Under the pieces are notes generated by a model. The model did not search any database. It was given only the letters and a program-made list of their open reading frames with translations, and had not been told where the DNA came from. DNA of 64,000 bases, taken from the NCBI RefSeq assembly GCF_009914755.1, contig NC_060927.1; one strand, given 5' to 3'. A program made the translations under genes and the position numbers. Source of the stretch: the human T2T-CHM13v2.0 reference genome, Homo sapiens. Numbering within the stretch: the stretch's first letter is position 1; each line of letters begins with the position of its first letter. Shown here piece after piece: positions 27,677-47,394 of this stretch.

Positions 27677-27805
27677 TGTATGATACAGCCACTTAACACT
27701 TTGTCATATATATTTATATATTTCAATATATAATATATATATTTAATATACAACATATAAATATTTAAATATATATGACAAAGTGTTAAATGGCTATATC
27801 ATACA
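27677..27805. repeat. 40-bp inverted repeat around an AT-rich spacer
   Basis: 27677-27716 versus reverse complement of 27766-27805: 38/40. Confidence 0.9.
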
Positions 27806-34088: not shown

Positions 34089-35424
34089 GTAAAAGTGGGC
34101 AGGAGTGTGGCACGCCATTCACTAAGCGGAAAGTAAATGTGTTGGGAGTGGGGAGGAGGAGCGTAGAGGAAACCCGAAGAAGTCATTCCGTTTTAATTCT
34201 GTGTTTTGCTCTTGATTGCTAGTGTACATCCAGCTCTTGGCCACTTTGATGCTGGCAGGCACAGCCGAGTTTAGTGCAACTTTGTGGGAAGAAGTGAAAT
34301 TCATCACTTTTAAATTTCTAAGCTCAGGCAGAATTGGGGGGGACAAGAGTGAAATATGGCAGATTATTGGCTGAGTGAGTCTTTACCACTTTTAAAAGAG
34401 ATAGCTGAAAGGGGGAGGAGCATGTTCAGAACCGCACTCTGCAGTCAAGTTGTCTGGAGTTTGCTTAGAGGTTTCAGTCAATGATAGCTGTTATCACAGC
34501 TGATTCAGAAAAATACTGATTCCTGTTTGAGCCTGTTGATTATTTTTTGCTTTTACTTACTGAATTTTGAGTGGTTACTACGCACTTGATGTCATTCAGG
34601 TAGAATGTGAATTTGAAAATCAGTTGCCAGGATCACAAAAGACATAAATATTTTGTCATCTTTTTTGTTGCTTGTTTTTGTCACCGTGGCCTTTGGTTGT
34701 GTTTTATTCCCGTTGTATGCCCATTCATCCTTGAGTGCATGTAACAGATTGGCAGCTGAAAACTTAAGGTTAGGGTGGACACTGTGTGGTATTGCTCCCC
34801 TATATTGTCCCATTAGCTGCACTTATTAAAATATTGTCAAATATGACATAAAGAAACAGGGAAAACTGAAGAGGGGTATTTTGGAGTGTGTGCTTCCTTC
34901 CACAGAAACAACACAGGTTTCAGCAATAAGGCAGAGATTCTTTTTGGCAGCCACATTTTTTCTTGGTTAATCAGAGCACTGGAACCAGTCTATATAAATG
35001 GCACATATGCAAAACACAAGCAAGCCTGTTTTATTTTAGAGCCCGTGGTCTTAAAGAAAATAAATTACATAACATTTTATGTGTTTTTTCCAACTCTGCA
35101 AGTATAGCAAAGTTCAATTTAACAGTGATGGTGAATCACGAGTTGTAAAATGAGCTGACCTGCTAGTTATTTGAGGATTCTCAATCTGTTTTGACAGGGT
35201 GTGGGGGATCTTGTACATTTTATTTCATTGTTTCAGTGAATTGTAGTGATCAAATGAGTGAACTCCTCCAGGGCTCAGCTTCTGTGCGCTCTTGGAAATC
35301 TAATTAATGTAATGACTAAAAAAAAGTATTTTTACTTAAAATAGCTGTATTTTCTATTTGGCTCATTCATACATAGTTTGCTTTTCCTTTTTTTTTTTTT
35401 TTTTTACTTTTTTTTGTCTCTTAG

Positions 35425-35464
35425 AAAAAAATGCTGAAAGGACAAGGAACATTTGATGGGGAAG
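35425..35464 (+). CDS. ARHGEF26: ARHGEF26 exon 3 (40 nt, KKMLKGQGTFDGE)
   Basis: Long poly-T tract with TCTCTTAG acceptor; donor AAG|GTAAGC; continues the reading frame. Confidence 0.93.
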
Positions 35465-37289
35465 GTAAGCATTTAATTTTCCAAACTTTCATTGCTGTTT
35501 CAATGTGGAATACCAATTATAAGTTGAAATCCAACTGCAGTAACAAAAATGCTTACGATGAGAAATATGTCCAACTTCTTCTCAAATTATACAGTCCAAA
35601 GCTTCTCACTAAGCTAAATTTTTATCTAGTAATACTAATGGTGAATATAGTTAATGGCATTTTTTATAGGCTGATAACTTTTTCAGTCGATGTCCTGGGA
35701 TTTTTAATTCTTCTCTACCTTGGCTCCATCCCCATGTTCCTCAGGAAGGGTAAGAGCAAGATCTAGCTTTTTAGTTAAAAATTCTGATTTTGGCATTTAG
35801 ATCTGAAGTCATATTTCTTTAGGTCACATTTCCTTTGACTTAGTATTCTGCCCATATTTCCACATTTGATTATCATTTCTGACTTCCTGTTTCCTTATTA
35901 AGTTTCAGCTTTGGGGGAACTCTAACTCTCCTGGCTGACAAAAACATATTCTTAAGACTTTTCAACCCATGTAGTATTTTTATTAAGGATCTCAAAAAAA
36001 AAAAAGCAGCTTCAACCAGGTGTTCAAACCCTAATCAGATTAATGGACTTTTTTAAATAGATGGGTCAAGCGTCAGCCAACTGGAAGAGCATGAAGGGAG
36101 CAGTCCCAGCTGTAGCACTTGTTGGGCTAGAGGGTCATGGTGGTAGTGAGGGTAGTTAAATTTTTGTCATGTTTTGAAGTGTGAAGATTTTCCAACCTTC
36201 AAAGAATAATAAAGAAGGGAGTGCCCCTCCATAGGTCAAGCAAATGTACAATCACCCAGAGTTATAAAATATGTAGCCTTAGGTGATTGTCAAGTAATTC
36301 CCTATATAATTTTTATAAAGATGAGTTTCCCATTGGAACATTTATAAATGACTTATCTATAAAAATTCATTCACCGCACCAATCTTAGGAAATCCAGATA
36401 TAGTATTTAGCTGGTTGGAATAAGTTCATCTCCCTAATTTTATAATTGAGGAAACCAGAAGATCTGAGAGGTTTGGTAACCTGTCTGCTGTCACACCTAG
36501 TTACACAGCCAGTAGTAGGACACAGATCGAGTTCTTAGTCCAGTTTGCTGCTTCTTATAGCACTCTGACTATGAAGTGAACAGCATCTACCTAATATTTA
36601 CCTAAGGAGATGCTTTACATTCCCTGGAATTTGATATTTATTTTGTGACCTCTGCCTAAGAGAGTTTAAAATTTTTAGATTTTTTTTGAAGTCAGAGAGT
36701 AGACTTCATTATAACTAGTTTTACGTTATTTCCTTTTATAAGGAGCTGTTTCTGTGTATCCTCTCATTTCTTCTCAAATATAATGACCTAGAAATTTTTT
36801 TCATGTACATACATATGTACATGAGGAATGCAGGATTCTTACAGTTAATGATTAACAAGAATGTAACTAAAGAAGCAGTGTGTCTAAATGGGGAGAATCT
36901 GTGATATTAGAGCCAGGCAGACCTGGGTTCCTGTCTTGCTGTTCCTGTTCATCAGTTAAGTGATACTGAGAAAAACCCTTAATATCACAGGGACCTCACT
37001 GAGCCACCTCATGTGTGAAATGAGGTTAATAATACTGTTGCCTAAGTTGTTGTGAAAATGAATGAGAAATCTGTCAACAATGTTATGCATATATACTTTG
37101 TGCCAACTACTTAGTACTTTGAAGACTAGGGGAGACTCAGCCTTTACCCTCATAATCTGCTTTACATAGCATGACAATCAGAGACCAGTAAAATCTTGAA
37201 TAGACTCCAGTGTTACTTTAGTCATAGTGCATACAGAATATTCTGTAGTTGATGAGAAAAGGGGCAGATGCATGCTTGTTTTGGTAGAT

Positions 37290-37790
37290 GGGAAAGTCAG
37301 TTCAAACTCAAAATGCCCCAAACCAAACTCATAATCTTCCCCACTAAACCTGAATCTCTTCTGGTGTTCCCATCTCCTACTTTCTGGTTGTGAGGCCTGC
37401 AGACCTAGGAAACACCCTTAACACCTCCCTCTCTCTGCCCCCATATCCGGTCTTTCACCAGTCTGTTCTATGTTATGTAGCTCAAATCTCCATCATCTTT
37501 CGTTGACTACCCCAATAGCTTCTTAGTCTCCTAGGTAGTCAATGTTTTGCTGTCTAATCTAAGCAAGTCTTTCCTTTTCATGGAGTCCCATTGTGTTCAG
37601 GAAAGAAATGCTATCATGACAGTGTGAAAGAAACTCAATCCTTTTGTACTCAGGGTGAAATCCAGTTTTTACCATTGCCTACAAATATTTCCTTGATTTG
37701 GACTGTCTGGCTCATGTCTCTAAACTCACCTTGTACACTGTGGCCACTAGACATACCCAAGCTTTTGCCACGTTGACTTTCCCTAGTTCT
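37290..37790 (+). mobile_element. L2 fragment
   Basis: CAAACTCAAAATGCCCCAAACCAAACTCATAATCTTCCC...CCCATCTC signature. Confidence 0.65.
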
Positions 37791-37799
37791 TTTAAGATA

Positions 37800-38946
37800 C
37801 AGCCATGCATCACTTAATGATGAGGATACATTCTGAGAAATACACCCTTGGGCAGTTTTGTTGTTGTGCAAATATCACAGAGCGTACTTAAACAAACCAG
37901 ATGGTATAGCCTAGGATATATGGTAGAGCCAAACCTGTACAGCATGTTACTGTACTGAATACTGTAGGCAGTTGTAACACAATGATATTTGTGTATCTAA
38001 GCACAGGAAAAGTACAGTAAAAATACAATATAAAATATTAAAAATGGTACTCTTCTATAGGACTCTTACCGTGAATGGAGCTTGCAGTACTGAAAGTTGC
38101 CCTGGGTGAGTCAGTAAATGAGTAGTGAGTGAATGGGAAGGCCTAGAACATTACTGTACACTATTGTAGACTTTACAAATACTGTACATTTAAGCTATAT
38201 TAAATTTTAAAGAAACTTTTCAATCATTAACTTCAGCTTACTGTAACTTATTTTGTAAAATTTAAAAATTTTTGAATCTTTTCAACTCTGGTTTTAATAC
38301 AGCTTAAAACACAAACACATTGTACAACTGTACAGAAATGTTTTATTTCTTCACATACCTATTCCATAAGCTTTTTCCTATTGTAAAAAATTTTCATTTT
38401 TACTTTTTAAATTCTTTTGTTGAAACTAAACACATGCATTAGCCTAGGCCTGCACAGGGTCAGAATCATCAATGTCACTGTTCTCCATCTCAACATCTTG
38501 TCCCACAAGAAGGTCTTCAGGGACAGTAACATACATGGGGCTGTCATCATCAATGATAACAGTGTCTTCTGGAATACCTCCTGAAGGACCTGCCTGAGGC
38601 TGTTTCACAGTTAACTATTTTTTTTTTTTTTTTGGTAAGTAGGAGTGCACTCTAAAATAATGATAAAAAGCATGGTATAGTAAATACATAAACCAGTAAC
38701 ATAGTTTATTATCATTATCAAGTATCATGAACTGTATATAATTGTATGTGCTATACTTTTGTATTTTTGGCAGTACAATCGGTTTGTTTACACCAGCATT
38801 ACCATAGACATGTGAGTAATGTGGTACACTACAACATTTAAGATGGCTAGGTGATAGGAATTTTTTAGCTCCTTTATAACATATGGGACCACCGTTGTAG
38901 ATGTGGTTTGTCATTGATCAAAACAATATTATGCAATGCGTGACTG
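37800..38946. mobile_element. Tigger3-type (MER7 family) DNA transposon
   Basis: TIRs CAGCCATGCATCACTTAATG / ATTATGCAATGCGTGACTG with TA on both flanks; ~1.15 kb. Confidence 0.85.
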
Positions 38947-39269
38947 TATTATGTTTCCTCTTATGTTCGCATTATAGCTTTTGTGTATGCTTTTCCTGTA
39001 GCTCTGTAGCTTCTCAGCTTTCAGACCTTAGACTTTCCTCATTGACCAAATATCTGACTGCCAGACTAGATCACACCCTACTGACAGTCTGTTCTCACCT
39101 CTATATAAATCCTTCAGTTTGTAGGTATGTATTTGTGTAAGATCATTATGTTCTCAAACTTATAGTGACTTGCCATCACATTTTGAGTAAAAATCAAAGT
39201 CCTTTAATGGCTGAGGCAAGGCCCTACATGATCAGCCCTCTGGTCACCCACAACTCCCATCTTCTTCTT

Positions 39270-39556
<287 letters not shown>

Positions 39557-39559
39557 TCA

Positions 39560-40090
39560 ACTCCCATCTTCTGTACTTTCCCCCCATTTCCTTGTACTCC
39601 AGCCATGCAGTCCTCCTTGCTGCTCTTGGTACATACAGACATACCAAGTAGACTCATGCCCCAGGGCTTTGCACTTGCTGTGTCCCTGATGAGATGCTGT
39701 TTGGGCACTAGTTCTTCATCAGAGTCAACATCAAGGGCCTTTTCTTTGTAGTTTTGATACAGGTGGCTCACTTTCTCACCTGTTCTATGTCTTTACTTAA
39801 TTGTCACTCCAGTGAGGCCTTCCTAAACTACCCTACTTAACATCTACATGCCCTCCTCCCAGCGCTTTCTACCCCCCTTCCCTGTTTCATGTTTCTTCAT
39901 GACACTTATCAGCATCAAAATACTACCAAAGTTATTTGCTTATTTATTGCAGTTCTCTCATGCTTTAGTATCAGCTCCTGAATATTGAGATTTTTAGTGT
40001 CTATTATTGTATTTCACGTGCTAAGCTGTTGCCGGTTCCTAGTAGGTGTTTTCTAAGTAACAGTTGAATGAATAAATGCATGAGTGAATT
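39560..40090 (+). mobile_element. L2 3' region (interrupted by the inverted exon-4 copy)
   Basis: CCAGGGCTTTGCACTTGCTG...TGGCTCAC...GAGGCCTTCCT...GTTGAATGAATAAATG. Confidence 0.7.
39700..39763 (-). repeat. Inverted partial copy of ARHGEF26 exon 4
   Basis: Reverse complement is 56/64 identical to 40599-40662; translates LYQNYKEKALDVDSDEELVPK. Confidence 0.95.
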
Positions 40091-40588
40091 TGACAGTTTT
40101 TTTAATTAAACTGTTAGCTCATGAGAGGTGGATGAGGGCATGAGAGCTCATGAGGCATCAGAGGTGTCTTTCTTTTGTTTTCCATTTTACTCTCAGCCCT
40201 TGGCACGTCATAGATACACAATAAATGTTTATTAAATAGATAAATGAATGGTGATGGACCTTAAATAAAAGATAGGATGTAATTTAACCTAAATTACAGT
40301 GATTTAACAGGCCTGACTGTCCTTCATGAGTAGTGGACAGAGACATGGAAACTGCTTCTGTTGGCATTCTCTGTATGGGCTGGTCCCCTTCCCCTGCAGT
40401 TGAGTTTGAGATAGAGCTATGTGAATGAGAAAATCACTTTTCTGTAATTATTCTTCAGGGACTAAATCTGTTTGTCTCTCTGTTTATAAAATTGGAGGCC
40501 AAACATTGGGTACATATGATGTTTATTTAGAACAAGTAACATAATGATTGAGAACAATTAGTGACACATAGGCCTTGTTTTCTTGCAG

Positions 40589-40734
40589 AAAATGCTGTCC
40601 TGTATCAAAACTACAAGGAAAAGGCCCTTGACATTGATTCTGATGAAGAGTCAGAGCCCAAAGAACAGAAGTCAGATGAAAAAATTGTGATTCACCATAA
40701 GCCATTGAGATCCACATGGAGCCAACTCTCTGCG
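40589..40734 (+). CDS. ARHGEF26: ARHGEF26 exon 4 (146 nt; ENAVLYQNYKEK...WSQLSA)
   Basis: Acceptor TTTTCTTGCAG, donor GCG|GTGAGT; frame continues; Ephexin LYQxY motif. Confidence 0.95.
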
Positions 40735-41162
40735 GTGAGTGTTTATCTTCTTTTCTATCTGTGGTAGGAAAAAAACAAGTTTTGGAAATTATGTGTGGAT
40801 TTGGCTTATGTTCTTTTCTGCCAGTGATCCTGTAACTAAGGAGAAAGACTCTTTTTAGATTGTGAAATGTTTCTCGGAACTCTGCCCGCACTAATGAGAA
40901 CATGAACTTTGACACTTCTGATCAGGAAAATTAGGTTTGATAAAATAAAGTGCTATGAGATTGATGTACTGTGACCTCTGGAAACTCTTTCTGCGAGATC
41001 TCTCTTTTTGTTAAATATAGCCTGCACTTTATCATAATTATGGCTATTTACATATATACGCGTGTGTGTTTATGTATGTATGCGTGTATATGTACATGTA
41101 TGTATGTACCTGTATATGTATCTCTGCACAATAGAAAGCTAGTTACAATTCTTCCTTGGAAA

Positions 41163-41463
41163 TTTTTTTTTTTTTTTTTTTTTTTTGAGATGAGGTCTTG
41201 CTCTGTCGCCCAGGCTGGAGTTCAGTGGCGTGATCTCGGCTCACTGCAGTCTCCCAGGTTCACGTGATTCTCCTGCCTCAGCCTCCTGAGTAGCTAGGAC
41301 TGTAGGCGTGTGCCACCATACCCAGCTAATTTTTGTATTTTTAGTAGAGATGAGATTTCACCGTATTGGCCAGGCTGGTCTTGAATTCCTGCCCTCTAGT
41401 GATCCGCCTGCCTCAGCCTCCCAAAGTGCTGGGATTACAGGCATGAGCCACCGCATCTAGCCC
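41163..41463 (-). mobile_element. Alu (AluS-type)
   Basis: Reverse Alu; TSD TTCCTTGGAAATTT. Confidence 0.95.
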
Positions 41464-44400
41464 TTCCTTGGAAATTTAATTTGATATAGAAATGTTTATA
41501 TATTCTTAAAGCTGATTAATGAATGATATTCTGTTCCATCTCTGTGCCTTTTTTGTATGCCTGTCTCTGACACTTAATTTTGTGTTGATGAGTAATTTCT
41601 CCTCTCTGCATCAGACACCTTTTGTTTTTTAACTGTATATTTTTTTCCTCCTGGCTTACAATGTCACAGTTTGATGCTTAGTTTACTTGATAAGAGTTTG
41701 GGCACAGCATTTGCGAATATCTGATGAATTAGCAAGTAGAAAGGAATTCCCATGGCTGGCTTGGTTCAGGGGAGCTTTGCATCAAAAACAAGCCAGTACA
41801 CCTCCATGAGTCCTTAGGCAATATCAGAGCAGAGGTGACAGAGATGTTTAGAATCAGGAATCTTGTGTATTTAGGGAACCCACTGGTGTAAGAAAAGGAG
41901 TTGTTAATGTTGGTGCTGTATAGCCAGGGCCGTGGGAATATGTGTATGTAAACGGTGGGAGACAACTTCTGCTTCAAGCTCTACCTTCCCTCTTCTAACC
42001 TGTATTGGAATTCAAAATTCAATACACCAAGCGCTTTCTCCCTGTCTTCTTCCCACCTCCTAATTTTGTTCTCAGGAGAATCTGTTCATTTCCAGGGCCT
42101 CTGAGGTATAGCACCCTTATGATTATGCCAAAAATTAAAATATTCACAGTGTCAGGGGAAGTAGAATGAATATGTGATGCTGGTATATGTAGGTGATAGG
42201 GAGTGGTGGGAGCTGTGGTGAACAGGCCTTATATAAATTGAGCAGCTACTACTTAGCTCAAACCAGGTGAGTGCAGGGGCTCAGTGTGACCAGATGTTCT
42301 GATAATTAGAAAAGAGAATGTACAAATCCAGACTTTTATGAGTATTTTCTCAACTCAAATTTTAAAGAAATGTTGTGTGTCCAAGAAAGTATTCAGATTT
42401 GCCCTCTATGCTAACAGTTTGTAACTTCTGTGATATTTTTAAAATTTTTGCATGTGGTTAGGTGGTAAAAGCTAGCCACAGAATTGGTTTATTAGCAGCC
42501 TTATACCCTAATCTAATGATCTCATGATATGTGTATCCCAAAACAGATATGTGGAAAAACTGATGACAAGGTCCATTGAGGCCATGTTGGCTCTAAATGG
42601 CTGTCATTCAGTTCATTCAGTTGTTGGTATGGACCATTTGGTAGAGGATCCAGGAGAAGAAAGAAGGCTGTGAATTTTTTGTTTTCTCTCTGTGGCAGCA
42701 GCTGGGTTTGTTAGCACAGGCCTAAATCGTGCTGTTGGTCTCTGAAAGAATGCTAAAAAGAAATGTGGATTTTTATGTCAGTTACACCCTGATCTCAGTT
42801 TAGCCCAAGAAACAGGCTGCCATATTTATGCCTCCTGGAGTTTGGCTTTCATATACATGAACAAATGTATATACAATTAAATAATAGTGCATATCCTTCA
42901 GTTCAACTTTGTTTATGGACTTGCATTTTATTTGGCAAAAAATGAATGTTGTGTCTTTTGTAAATGATATTGATATCATAGAACTATCTTGTAATAAAAT
43001 GTAAAACTATAAAGTGATTTCTGATTTTAGTGTATGTTATCTTGGAGTTGAGTGTTCCCGGGAGGCTTGTGTGTGTTTATTGTGTTGCTTGGCAATTACA
43101 TTTAATGAAAGCAGCATGATTGGACTTGGCCACTTAGCATTACTTAGGCACCAGCCTGCATTTCTTTGTGCCTTTTGTGTCTTCTTTTCACTTACATTTT
43201 ACTTTAATTTTTTTTGTTATAAAGTGCTTTAAACCCATAGAAAAATTAAAAAATAAATAAAGTTAATCAATTTCTGTGTACCTATCACTCAGATTGAACA
43301 AATGTTAATATTTTAACATATTTGCTTCATTTTCTATTTTTTTAGACTATTACAGCGAACCCCTCCTTCCTTTCCAGTTCTTTTCTCCTTCCTACCTCCC
43401 CAGAGATAACCACTATCCCTGACGTTCTCTTCTGTCCTTCCCATGAGGGTTTTCTGTCCACCAAAAAGATATAACCAGTTCTGGCTTTTAGGAAAGTAGA
43501 TATTTTAACACCAGAAAGCAGCCATTACCTTTTTAGAAGCTCATCTGCTACTAAATTTTCAAGTTGTATTTAGGACCCTAACGAGCGGAGGCTTCGTGCA
43601 TCATTAACAATGTCAGGATGTTTCTCAAAAGTGATCGGCACCTCTATTTCTCTATCTGACCCCTCCTGGTAGTGAAGCTGCAGCGTTTAGGGCAGGTCTC
43701 AGAAGACTTTCAACTTTAATATATATATTCAGCTTTAATATGTAATATATAAATATATATGTGTGTGTATATATAGAGTTGGAGGTCTATATATATAAAT
43801 ACCTAGTATAATGTATATATTAAACCTAGCATCATCTACGTATATAAAATCATCCTTCCATGCTTAATTTTAATAATCAAAATAGTAAGGTAGCCCGTCT
43901 AATTTTGAGTATAACATTTTAATGCAAAACTCTTCTTAAAGACAAGGGGTTTTCTGGCAGTGGGTTAGGTCTCAGTTCGGCATATACCTTCACTTCCTGC
44001 TAAGGAGGGTAGGGAGTGAGTGCACATGTGCATTAGCCGGTGTTGTTTTATTTTCTAAAAAATCTTTTTATTGCAAATGCCTGCCTCCTGGGATGGTGAA
44101 ACTATCCTTATCAGTTGACTATAAGAAGCATTCAGTATGCTGAATACTTTTGAAGTGCAGCAATTTGCAGTAATTTATGGTTGTTACGTAAGATCTTTAA
44201 GCCTTGAGTCTGTGCTGTAATTTGTCTGGGCGTGTTTATGTTTCCTTTGGTTTCATTGGACCATGCTGGGTAAGGCAGTGTTCAGCTATACAGATGACAG
44301 GTGGTTCCCCATTTATGGTGTTGGGACAGGTTTAACTGTAGTGTTGTCATTTAGGAATAAAGGAGAATTAGAAGAGGCATTTATTTAGTTGGGCCTCAGT

Positions 44401-44477
44401 AGAATAATAAATGATAGTCATTTGTTTAACTGAGCCTCAATAGAATAATGAGCCACAGACTTCTATATTAGGACTAA

Positions 44478-46455
<1,978 letters not shown>

Positions 46456-47234: not shown

Positions 47235-47394
47235 AAAGTATTTTAATTTTAATTAAAATATTTTAAGTAAAGTATTTTAATTTTAATTAAAATATTTTAA
47301 CTAAAGTATTTTAATTTTAATTAAAATATTTTAACTAAAGTATTTTAATTTTAATTAAAATATTTTAACTAAAGTATTTTAATTAAAGTATTTT
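47235..47394. repeat. 34-bp AT-rich minisatellite (4 full copies plus partial)
   Basis: Unit AAAGTATTTTAATTTTAATTAAAATATTTTAACT. Confidence 0.95.

What the first reader, a model, noticed from the sequence alone, without database searches (positions are those of the whole stretch)
39700..40662. Intronic inverted copy of exon 4: candidate self-made editing-complementary or splice-control element over the LYQNY motif
Seen: the reverse complement of 39700-39763 matches exon-4 positions 40599-40662 at 56/64 without gaps, about 840 nt apart in the same pre-mRNA. Four of the 8 differences become G-U wobbles in the sense RNA, so 60/64 nt can pair. The duplex starts about 10 nt after the 3' splice site, and A40633 (first base of Ile390 ATT) faces a C. 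Known: ADAR recoding sites usually depend on an intronic complementary sequence and favour A-C mismatches, and the LYQxY helix N-terminal to the DH domain is an autoinhibitory, tyrosine-regulated element in Ephexin-family GEFs. Inference: the duplex could drive A-to-I recoding (I390V, Y380C at A40604, Y383C, K-to-R changes) or sequester exon 4 and its acceptor.
Basis: partly seen in the sequence, partly recalled or inferred. Interest (0 to 1): 0.85.

Follow-up and report, generated by a model that had tools for sequence, protein, structure and literature searches.

The report
Backwards exon copy inside ARHGEF26 intron
A 64-base backwards copy of part of ARHGEF26 exon 4 sits in the intron before it, probably left by an old DNA copying error; it could pair with the exon in the RNA, but no use of that pairing was found.

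Summary
The reverse complement of 39700-39763 matches exon-4 bases 40599-40662 at 56 of 64, and 60 of 64 positions can pair in the sense RNA. The next-best match among 127,874 offsets in the window is 33 of 64. The genome holds only these two copies.

The intronic copy lies inside an old interspersed repeat, L2-like by recall. None of 30 other family members carries the block. It replaced about 16 bases of the repeat. The exon peptide is nearly invariant across mammals and birds, so the exon was the source. This is the signature of a reverse-complement templated insertion, that is, a long-range template switch. Eight differences make it old, not human-specific.

In silico the duplex is very stable, -94 kcal/mol against -21 for shuffled arms. 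I found no evidence of use. ARHGEF26 is absent from the readable supplements of three A-to-I studies. The 4 G-U to 3 A-C split among the differences is what neutral transitions give.

Most likely this is a neutral relic, perhaps edited weakly and promiscuously. Cross-species DNA and RNA-seq could not be examined.

The parts
39700..39763 (-). Intronic inverted copy of exon-4 bases 40599-40662. Read on the minus strand it is the exon sequence, and in the exon frame it encodes LYQNYKEKALDVDSDEELVPK.
   Evidence: 56/64 identity to the exon after reverse complement. It is one of only two genomic matches to exon 4. It is absent from 30 of 30 other members of the surrounding repeat family.
40599..40662 (+). 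Exon-4 arm, the source of the copy. It covers codons 379-399 (LYQNYKEKALDIDSDEESEPK) of ARHGEF26.
   Evidence: The peptide is near-invariant in 104 homologue segments from mammals and birds.
40589..40734 (+). ARHGEF26 exon 4 (146 nt, phase 1). Its acceptor is a polypyrimidine tract followed by cag, and its donor begins gtgagt.
   Evidence: Hub annotation, sequence, and a codon numbering check.
39764..40598 (+). 835-nt loop closed by the duplex. It contains the end of intron 3, including the branch-point region, the acceptor and the first 10 exon bases.
39556..39699 (+). Upstream flank of the host repeat: an old interspersed repeat, L2-like 3' region (name recalled, not tested).
   Evidence: Homology to copies on other chromosomes. 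A 19-mer that differs from 39664-39681 by one extra base occurs 239 times in the genome and its backwards control 0 times. A profile of 30 copies aligns here with high posterior.
39764..40090 (+). Downstream flank of the same host repeat. The end coordinate is approximate.
   Evidence: L005 matches window 39767-39926 and L006 matches 39764-39858, collinear with their upstream matches.
39255..39554 (+). Alu insertion into the same old repeat, with a target-site duplication (39248-39265 / 39555-39572). It is an independent event and not part of the duplex.
   Evidence: Direct repeat D10, 94%, the Alu-like sequence, and the masked interval in the hub table.

Best explanation
The block at 39700-39763 is a single, old, reverse-complement templated insertion. 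During replication or break repair in the germ line, a nascent strand left its template inside an L2-like repeat in intron 3. It copied 64 bases of the opposite strand of exon 4, about 0.84 kb away, and then returned, replacing about 16 bases of the repeat. This is a long-range template switch of the four-point, MMBIR or FoSTeS kind. The pre-mRNA can therefore fold a duplex of about 64 bp between intron 3 and exon 4. Most likely the duplex is a tolerated by-product with no selected function. If ADAR acts on it at all, I expect weak, promiscuous editing of nascent RNA, strongest in the intronic arm, rather than site-selective recoding. Shown: the copy, its uniqueness, its position inside a repeat that otherwise lacks it, the direction of copying, and the predicted stability. 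Inferred: the molecular mechanism, the age, and neutrality.
For: Copy and uniqueness: 56/64 identity, next best 33/64 among 127,874 offsets, and only two genomic matches.

Host repeat: both flanks match dispersed copies on other chromosomes. In L006 the two collinear flank matches lie 16 nt apart where the window has 62 nt. In L005 the figures are 62 nt against 133 nt. A 19-mer from the flank family occurs 239 times in the genome, control 0. In an alignment of the window with 30 family copies, 0 of 30 carry the block. A profile of those 30 aligns with high posterior to both flanks and has 34 positions where the window has about 77 nt. The net gain is about 43-44 nt, that is, 64 in and about 16-20 out.

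Direction: the exon-4 peptide is 90-100% identical in mammals and birds among the 120 listed hits. I390 and E397 are invariant in 104/104 and S396 in 103/104 ungapped segments. The 4 non-synonymous base differences therefore arose in the intronic copy. The other 4 are synonymous third-position changes.

Neutral pattern: 7 of 8 differences are transitions, giving 4 G-U and 3 A-C, the 1:1 split expected without selection for pairing.

Mechanism: the four-point model describes exactly this, replacement of a fragment by the reverse complement of a nearby fragment in one event (PMC5453318, passages read).

No use seen: ARHGEF26 is absent from the readable supplements of three editing studies. The GTEx catalogue does report editing clusters where long reverse-oriented exon copies exist.
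Against: Neutrality is not tested directly, because no orthologous DNA from other species could be fetched. The age is unknown, so 8 differences cannot be compared with an independent expectation.

The duplex is still very stable: -94.1 kcal/mol against -21.4 +/- 3.4 for 200 shuffled arms, a mean pair probability of 0.91, and 55 kcal/mol better than any fold limited to a 600-nt span. By what is known of inverted Alu pairs (recalled), such a duplex should attract ADAR. Absence from curated lists of mature-mRNA sites does not exclude editing of nascent RNA, low levels, or tissue-specific editing. One of the supplementary files was not searched, and one was cut when stored.

The 0.84-kb distance is longer than the short-range events for which the four-point model was applied. 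Clear microhomology is seen at one junction at most, and only against a family majority sequence.
Confidence: 0.66

Rival explanations
1. Active but non-adaptive ADAR substrate. The duplex forms co-transcriptionally and is edited at many adenosines in nascent or intron-retaining RNA, mainly in the intronic arm. Little of this reaches mature mRNA. This overlaps the best explanation and differs only in saying that editing is measurable.
For: The duplex is long and stable, and it persists in the context fold. Intronic A39710 is U-A-G opposite C, and several exon adenosines have A or U 5' neighbours. That these contexts are favoured is recalled knowledge. Long reverse-oriented exon copies do give clusters of CDS editing in GTEx, for example TOR1B/TOR1A (PMC8897444, passages read).
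Against: ARHGEF26 does not occur in the readable supplements searched. Full-text searches found no report. REDIportal itself and raw RNA-seq could not be queried.
Confidence: 0.3
2. Selected editing-complementary sequence. The intronic arm is kept because ADAR recoding of the helix N-terminal to the DH domain (Y380C, Y383C, K to R, I390V) tunes autoinhibition of the exchange factor.
For: It has the geometry of a classic intronic ECS. 19 of the 24 adenosines in the exon arm would recode. An inhibitory, tyrosine-phosphorylated helix N-terminal to the DH domain is described for Ephexin1 and Ephexin3 (review PMC6406967, passages read). It is not shown there for ARHGEF26.
Against: No ARHGEF26 site occurs in the readable supplements of the three studies. 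A long, nearly perfect duplex favours promiscuous rather than selective editing (recalled). The peptide NAVLYQNYKEKAL is identical in 104/104 homologue segments, and no species has genomic V at 390, so most recoding here would probably be harmful. A40633 has a 5' C and lies in a tandem mismatch. The mismatch pattern looks neutral.
Confidence: 0.06
3. Splicing or kinetic control element. Pairing hides the purine-rich first half of exon 4 and closes the branch point and acceptor into an 835-nt loop. This would slow intron-3 removal or cause some exon-4 skipping, which shifts the frame because the exon is 146 nt.
For: The duplex starts 10 nt into the exon and is predicted with high probability. 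Long-range pairings are associated with splicing outcomes in human genes, and double-stranded splice-site regions are generally obstructive (PMC8052449, passages read).
Against: The acceptor, the polypyrimidine tract and the donor are outside the duplex and look strong. The hub table lists no transcript without exon 4 in this window. The PCCR catalogue excluded exons and repeats by design, so it neither supports nor contradicts, and ARHGEF26 is not in its 3 readable supplements. There are no data on inclusion levels.
Confidence: 0.1
4. RNA-templated origin. A fragment of ARHGEF26 transcript, not the neighbouring DNA, was used as a patch in break repair or was reverse-transcribed into the intron in antisense orientation.
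For: The copied stretch lies wholly within one exon, so an RNA source cannot be excluded from the sequence.
Against: There is no exon-exon junction, no poly(A) and no target-site duplication around the block. The source lies only 835 nt away in cis, which a local DNA template switch explains without further assumptions.
Confidence: 0.08

Closest known systems
Template-switch mutations (four-point model, Loytynoja and Goldman 2017, PMC5453318) and MMBIR/FoSTeS templated insertions
   Same: A fragment at the target site is replaced in one step by the reverse complement of a nearby fragment, which creates a new inverted repeat flanked by unrelated sequence. Here 64 nt of exon 4 replace about 16 nt of a repeat.
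   Different: The template lies 835 nt away, and the copied piece is 64 nt. The published scans addressed short-range events and expressly did not model long-range switches. The event here is old and is inferred from repeat-family comparison, not from a sister-species alignment.
Intronic editing-complementary sequences of ADAR recoding sites (for example GRIA2 Q/R; recalled)
   Same: An intronic stretch is complementary to a coding exon of the same pre-mRNA, giving a predicted duplex that includes A-C mismatches.
   Different: No editing of the exon was found in the catalogues searched. The duplex is long and nearly perfect rather than short and imperfect. Conservation of the intronic arm could not be tested.
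Coding-sequence editing clusters caused by reverse-oriented paralogue exons (TOR1B/TOR1A, CLDN9; Gabay et al. 2022, PMC8897444)
   Same: The complementary strand is a diverged copy of the exon itself, giving a long duplex with coding sequence.
   Different: There the partner is a neighbouring gene's exon reached through an extended 3' UTR, so the duplex persists in mature mRNA. Here the partner is intronic and is removed by splicing. No cluster is listed for ARHGEF26.
Hairpins and microRNA precursors born by template switching (PMC8794818, PMC10710096; search listing and abstract starts only)
   Same: A single mutational event creates a ready-made long RNA stem instead of many point changes.
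   Different: Those are local hairpins with short loops. This one has an 835-nt loop and one arm in a protein-coding exon.
Long-range pre-mRNA pairings that affect splicing (PCCRs, PMC8052449)
   Same: Two complementary regions under 10 kb apart within one gene, close to a splice site.
   Different: PCCRs are defined from conserved, non-repeat, non-exonic sequence. This pair has one arm in an exon and the other inside a repeat, so it was outside that search by design. The predicted energy here is several times greater than the validated examples listed there (-16 to -36 kcal/mol, against -94).

Membership tests
Template-switch / templated-insertion mutation | The new sequence is the reverse complement of a nearby sequence on the same chromosome | tested here: met
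   56/64 identity to exon 4, 835 nt away. It is the only other match in the genome.
Template-switch / templated-insertion mutation | The copy replaces, or is inserted into, pre-existing sequence whose ancestral state lacks it | tested here: met
   0 of 30 aligned family members carry the block. The profile has 34 positions where the window has about 77 nt. Collinear flank matches occur in L005 and L006. The ancestral state is inferred from paralogous repeat copies, not from an orthologue.
Template-switch / templated-insertion mutation | Orthologous locus in an outgroup without the insertion (polarity and date) | not testable with these tools
   No collection of vertebrate genomes other than the window's own assembly was available.
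Template-switch / templated-insertion mutation | Short range (switch points within tens of bases), as in the published four-point scans | tested here: not met
   The distance is 835 nt. It therefore works like a template switch but belongs with long-range (MMBIR/FoSTeS-type) events, which the model paper says it did not try to cover.
ADAR editing-complementary sequence (ECS) | Intronic sequence that base-pairs with the edited exon in the pre-mRNA | tested here: met
   60/64 positions pair, -94.1 kcal/mol, and the mean pair probability in 1.2 kb of context is 0.91. This is prediction only.
ADAR editing-complementary sequence (ECS) | Observed A-to-I editing of the paired exon | tested here: inconclusive
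   ARHGEF26 does not occur in the readable supplements of PMC8897444 (3 files; ARHGEF1 and ARHGEF4 are present), PMC12203800 (1 file) or PMC9704047 (4 of 5 files searched). No raw RNA-seq and no REDIportal were available.
ADAR editing-complementary sequence (ECS) | Unusual conservation of the intronic arm across species | not testable with these tools
   No orthologous DNA was available. Within the human sequence, the split of differences (4 G-U, 3 A-C, 1 A-A) fits neutral change.
Splicing-regulatory long-range RNA structure | The pairing overlaps or encloses a splice site or regulated exon and changes its use | not tested
   The geometry is compatible, since the duplex starts at exon base 11 and the loop holds the acceptor. 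No splicing data were available, and the pair was outside the PCCR search space.

The most novel reading that the evidence does not exclude
One template-switch event, tens of millions of years ago, gave a deeply conserved exon a ready-made 64-bp editing-complementary sequence. Primates may now use it, perhaps only under high ADAR activity (interferon, brain), to recode the tyrosine-bearing helix in front of the DH domain of ARHGEF26 (Y380C, Y383C, K to R, I390V), or to time the removal of intron 3. That would be a documented birth of an ECS by a single mutation.
Probability: 0.07. Interest if true: 0.7.

Novelty: new member of a known kind. Interest (0 to 1): 0.3.

Why it matters
How intronic editing-complementary sequences arise is poorly documented. 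Two full-text searches found no paper that traces an ECS to an inverted copy of its own exon. This locus shows that one templated insertion can create a near-perfect 64-bp exon-intron duplex in a single step, inside a gene whose exon is almost invariant from birds to humans.

If the duplex is silent, it is a natural control. It would show that a strong intronic complement is not enough for detectable recoding, presumably because splicing or RNA-binding proteins win.

If it is edited, it would be a dated example of ECS birth.

Either outcome can be read from existing RNA-seq and genome alignments. On present evidence the locus is an ordinary, neutral structural relic.

Tried and rejected
Chance or shared repeat. 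Rejected: the next-best match is 33/64 among 127,874 offsets, and there are only two genomic copies.

Exon derived from the repeat. Rejected: the family lacks the block, and the peptide is conserved as far as birds.

Copy from a paralogue. Rejected: no other genomic sequence matches exon 4 or the block at E<=0.001 or E<=10 respectively.

Coding or exon role for the copy on the minus strand. An 88-codon stop-to-stop frame exists, but there is no acceptor before the block and no annotation. I did not pursue it.

Known RNA family. 0 Rfam matches in 35000-45000 at gathering thresholds.

Flanking Alus as a pairing partner. The Alus at 39255-39554 and 41152-41461 are in the same orientation (direct repeats D1-D5), so they do not pair with each other.

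Recent or human-specific event. Rejected by inference: 8 differences in 64 nt is far more than a few million years would give at recalled primate rates.

Earlier findings of this scan.

Dating by polarising the differences with proteins. Only the 3 amino-acid differences could be assigned, all to the intronic copy. The 4 synonymous differences stay unassigned for lack of orthologous DNA.

Microhomology at the switch points. At most about 4 nt at the upstream junction, measured against the family majority, and none clear at the downstream junction. This is too uncertain to count as evidence.

Literature. The searches 'ARHGEF26' with 'RNA editing' (5 papers, two read in passages, not about editing of this gene) and 'ARHGEF26' with 'ADAR' (17 papers, 15 listed, none relevant by title or abstract start) gave nothing.

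Full report
**1. The observation**

The sequence is as described. The reverse complement of 39700-39763 equals exon-4 bases 40599-40662 at 56 of 64 positions without gaps. In the sense transcript, 60 of 64 positions can pair, 4 of them as G-U. The four non-pairs are A39707/A40655, A39710/C40652, C39729/A40633 and A39730/C40632.

The repeat finder reports the same pair slightly extended: 39695-39763 with 40599-40667, 69 nt, 86% complementary, 835 nt between the arms. Exon 4 begins at 40589, so the duplex begins at exon base 11.

I slid the 64-mer over both strands of the whole window. The true site scores 56/64 and no other offset exceeds 33/64 among 127,874. The binomial expectation multiplied by the number of offsets is 7e-20.

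Among 28 inverted pairs of at least 45 nt within 5 kb in the window (25 listed), the other listed pairs that I recognise are Alu pairs or AT-rich palindromes. This is the only one that touches an exon.

**2. What it is**

A search of the window's own assembly with exon 4 finds two places only, the exon and this block. The reciprocal search with 39556-40100 finds the exon as the only partner of the block. So the block is not a member of a repeat family.

Its flanks are. Window 39600-39685 matches dispersed copies on two other chromosomes, and 39772-39911 matches a third.

With sensitive BLAST the matches are collinear across the block:
- In L006 the two flank matches are 16 nt apart where the window has 62 nt.
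- In L005 they are 62 nt apart where the window has 133 nt.

A 19-mer shared by these copies differs from window 39664-39681 by one extra base. It occurs 239 times in the genome, and its backwards control occurs 0 times.

I aligned the window with the 30 copies that were returned as loci, out of the 239. None of the 30 carries the block. A profile built from the 30 aligns with high posterior probability to both flanks, and it has 34 positions where the window has about 77 nt.

Between two well-aligned anchors the window has 83 nt where a typical copy has about 39. That means 64 nt came in and about 16-20 nt of the repeat went out.

By recall the family is the 3' region of LINE-2. No repeat library was available to confirm the name. 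An Alu with its own target-site duplication (39248-39265 / 39555-39572) landed in the same old repeat. It is unrelated to the duplex.

**3. Direction and age**

The exon is the source. A protein search with the 48 residues of exon 4 returned 366 hits, of which 120 were listed. These are ARHGEF26 orthologues of mammals, at 94-100% identity, and of birds, at 90-94%.

Of the 120, 104 aligned over all 48 residues without gaps. The other 16 were dropped from the counts. In those 104 segments:
- NAVLYQNYKEKAL is identical in all.
- I390 and E397 are invariant.
- S396 is S in 103; the exception is P0069, the aardvark.

Read in the exon frame, the block encodes V390, L396 and V397. The 4 non-synonymous base differences therefore arose in the intronic copy. 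The other 4 differences are synonymous third-position changes and cannot be assigned without orthologous DNA.

Eight differences in 64 nt (12.5%) is far more than a recent event or an error-prone polymerase would leave. At recalled primate neutral rates it suggests an origin tens of millions of years ago, somewhere between the anthropoid and the early placental ancestors, with a wide error. This date is an inference, not a measurement.

**4. Mechanism of origin**

The anatomy has four features:
- a reverse-complement copy of a sequence 0.84 kb away in cis;
- replacement of a short stretch at the target;
- no poly(A), target-site duplication or splice junction;
- presence in a single copy.

That paper applied the model to short-range events and states that long-range switches (MMBIR, FoSTeS, BIR) were not modelled. 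By distance, this case belongs with the latter.

Microhomology is suggestive at the upstream junction only, and only against the family majority. An RNA template cannot be excluded but is not needed.

**5. What the duplex could do**

Thermodynamically the pairing is strong:
- The two 64-mers pair at -94.1 kcal/mol. With a few flanking bases the figure is -100.8. For 200 shuffles of the intronic arm it is -21.4 +/- 3.4.
- In the partition function of 39600-40800, the mean probability of the 64 in-register positions is 0.91.
- Forbidding pairs that span more than 600 nt costs 55 kcal/mol.

The minimum-energy fold of 39650-40750 keeps the helix.

The exon arm holds 24 adenosines, and 19 would recode if edited. 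The intronic arm holds 14. By recalled ADAR neighbour preferences the best site is intronic A39710, which is U-A-G opposite C. A helix this long and regular should be edited promiscuously rather than selectively.

The acceptor, the polypyrimidine tract and the donor lie outside the helix.

**6. Evidence on use**

None was found. I searched readable supplements of four studies for 'ARHGEF26':

| Study | Files | Result |
|---|---|---|
| GTEx-wide recoding catalogue (PMC8897444) | 3 (7.8 million characters; one file cut when stored, two PDFs unreadable) | Not present. The site table does list ARHGEF1, ARHGEF4, GRIA2 and COPA. |
| Four-species brain study (PMC12203800) | 1 | Not present |
| Brain-development study (PMC9704047) | 4 of 5 searched | Not present |
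| Long-range pre-mRNA pairings, PCCRs (PMC8052449) | 3 | Not present |

The GTEx paper reports that long reverse-oriented exon copies do produce clusters of 10-19 coding sites, as in TOR1B/TOR1A and CLDN9. A strongly edited ARHGEF26 exon 4 would therefore probably have been seen.

The PCCR catalogue excluded exons and RepeatMasker intervals by design, so its silence says nothing.

Full-text searches for ARHGEF26 with 'RNA editing' (5 papers) and with 'ADAR' (17 papers) gave nothing pertinent.

These are curated lists of mature-mRNA sites. They do not exclude weak, nascent-RNA or tissue-restricted editing.

The internal evidence is neutral. A transition in a Watson-Crick pair yields G-U or A-C with equal probability, and the 7 transitions here give 4 and 3. 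The extreme conservation of the peptide argues that widespread recoding here would be harmful rather than useful.

**7. Comparison with known systems**

- It works like a template-switch mutation, and by its defining features it is one of the long-range kind.
- It looks like an ECS. The defining feature of observed editing is unconfirmed, and conservation could not be tested, so I do not file it as an ECS.
- It resembles the paralogue-driven CDS editing clusters in having a diverged exon copy as partner. It differs in that the partner is removed with the intron.
It is not shown there for ARHGEF26.

**8. Verdict**

The 'self-made' origin is supported and made more precise: a templated insertion into an old repeat. 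The functional reading remains possible but without support.

| Reading | Confidence |
|---|---|
| Neutral relic of a long-range template switch | 0.66 |
| Measurable but non-adaptive editing (not exclusive of the first) | about 0.3 |
| Splicing effect | about 0.1 |
| Selected recoding | about 0.06 |

Novelty: a new member of a known kind. Interest: 0.3. The locus is a neat natural test of whether a born-perfect intronic complement suffices for recoding, and it can be settled from public alignments and RNA-seq that were out of reach here.

Noticed in passing
window 27677-27805: Near-perfect AT-rich hairpin-type palindrome: 60-nt arms, 85% complementary, with only 9 nt between them. It lies upstream of the ARHGEF26 promoter, inside the span of ARHGEF26-AS1 (pair I16). 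It could be a small foldback element or another template-switch product.
   Followed up: no
window 47248-47387: AT-rich block that is both tandemly and invertedly repeated: 69-nt arms, 86% complementary, 2 nt apart (pairs I11, I18, I19). It lies in intron 4 of ARHGEF26.
   Followed up: no
window 39526-39792, minus strand: The inverted exon copy lies in an 88-codon stop-to-stop open frame on the minus strand, which runs on into the old repeat and the Alu edge. There is no acceptor site before the copy and no annotation. It is probably accidental.
   Followed up: partly
protein P0069 (aardvark ARHGEF26), residue equivalent to human 396: This is the only one of 104 homologue segments with L instead of S at position 396, the same residue that the human intronic copy encodes. 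It is a different lineage and probably a different codon, so most likely a coincidence.
   Followed up: no
window 39255-39554 and 41152-41461: Two Alus in the same orientation flank the region, at about 80% identity over the aligned parts (D1-D5). The first has a clear 18-nt target-site duplication (D10), and the second shows 41151-41170 / 41463-41482 (D8). Being direct repeats, they do not add to RNA pairing around exon 4.
   Followed up: partly
protein P0091 (tree shrew record): A 731-residue record named ARHGEF26 carries ribosomal-protein Pfam domains (PF03868, PF01159) together with the exon-4 peptide. It is probably a mis-joined gene model in the source annotation.
   Followed up: no
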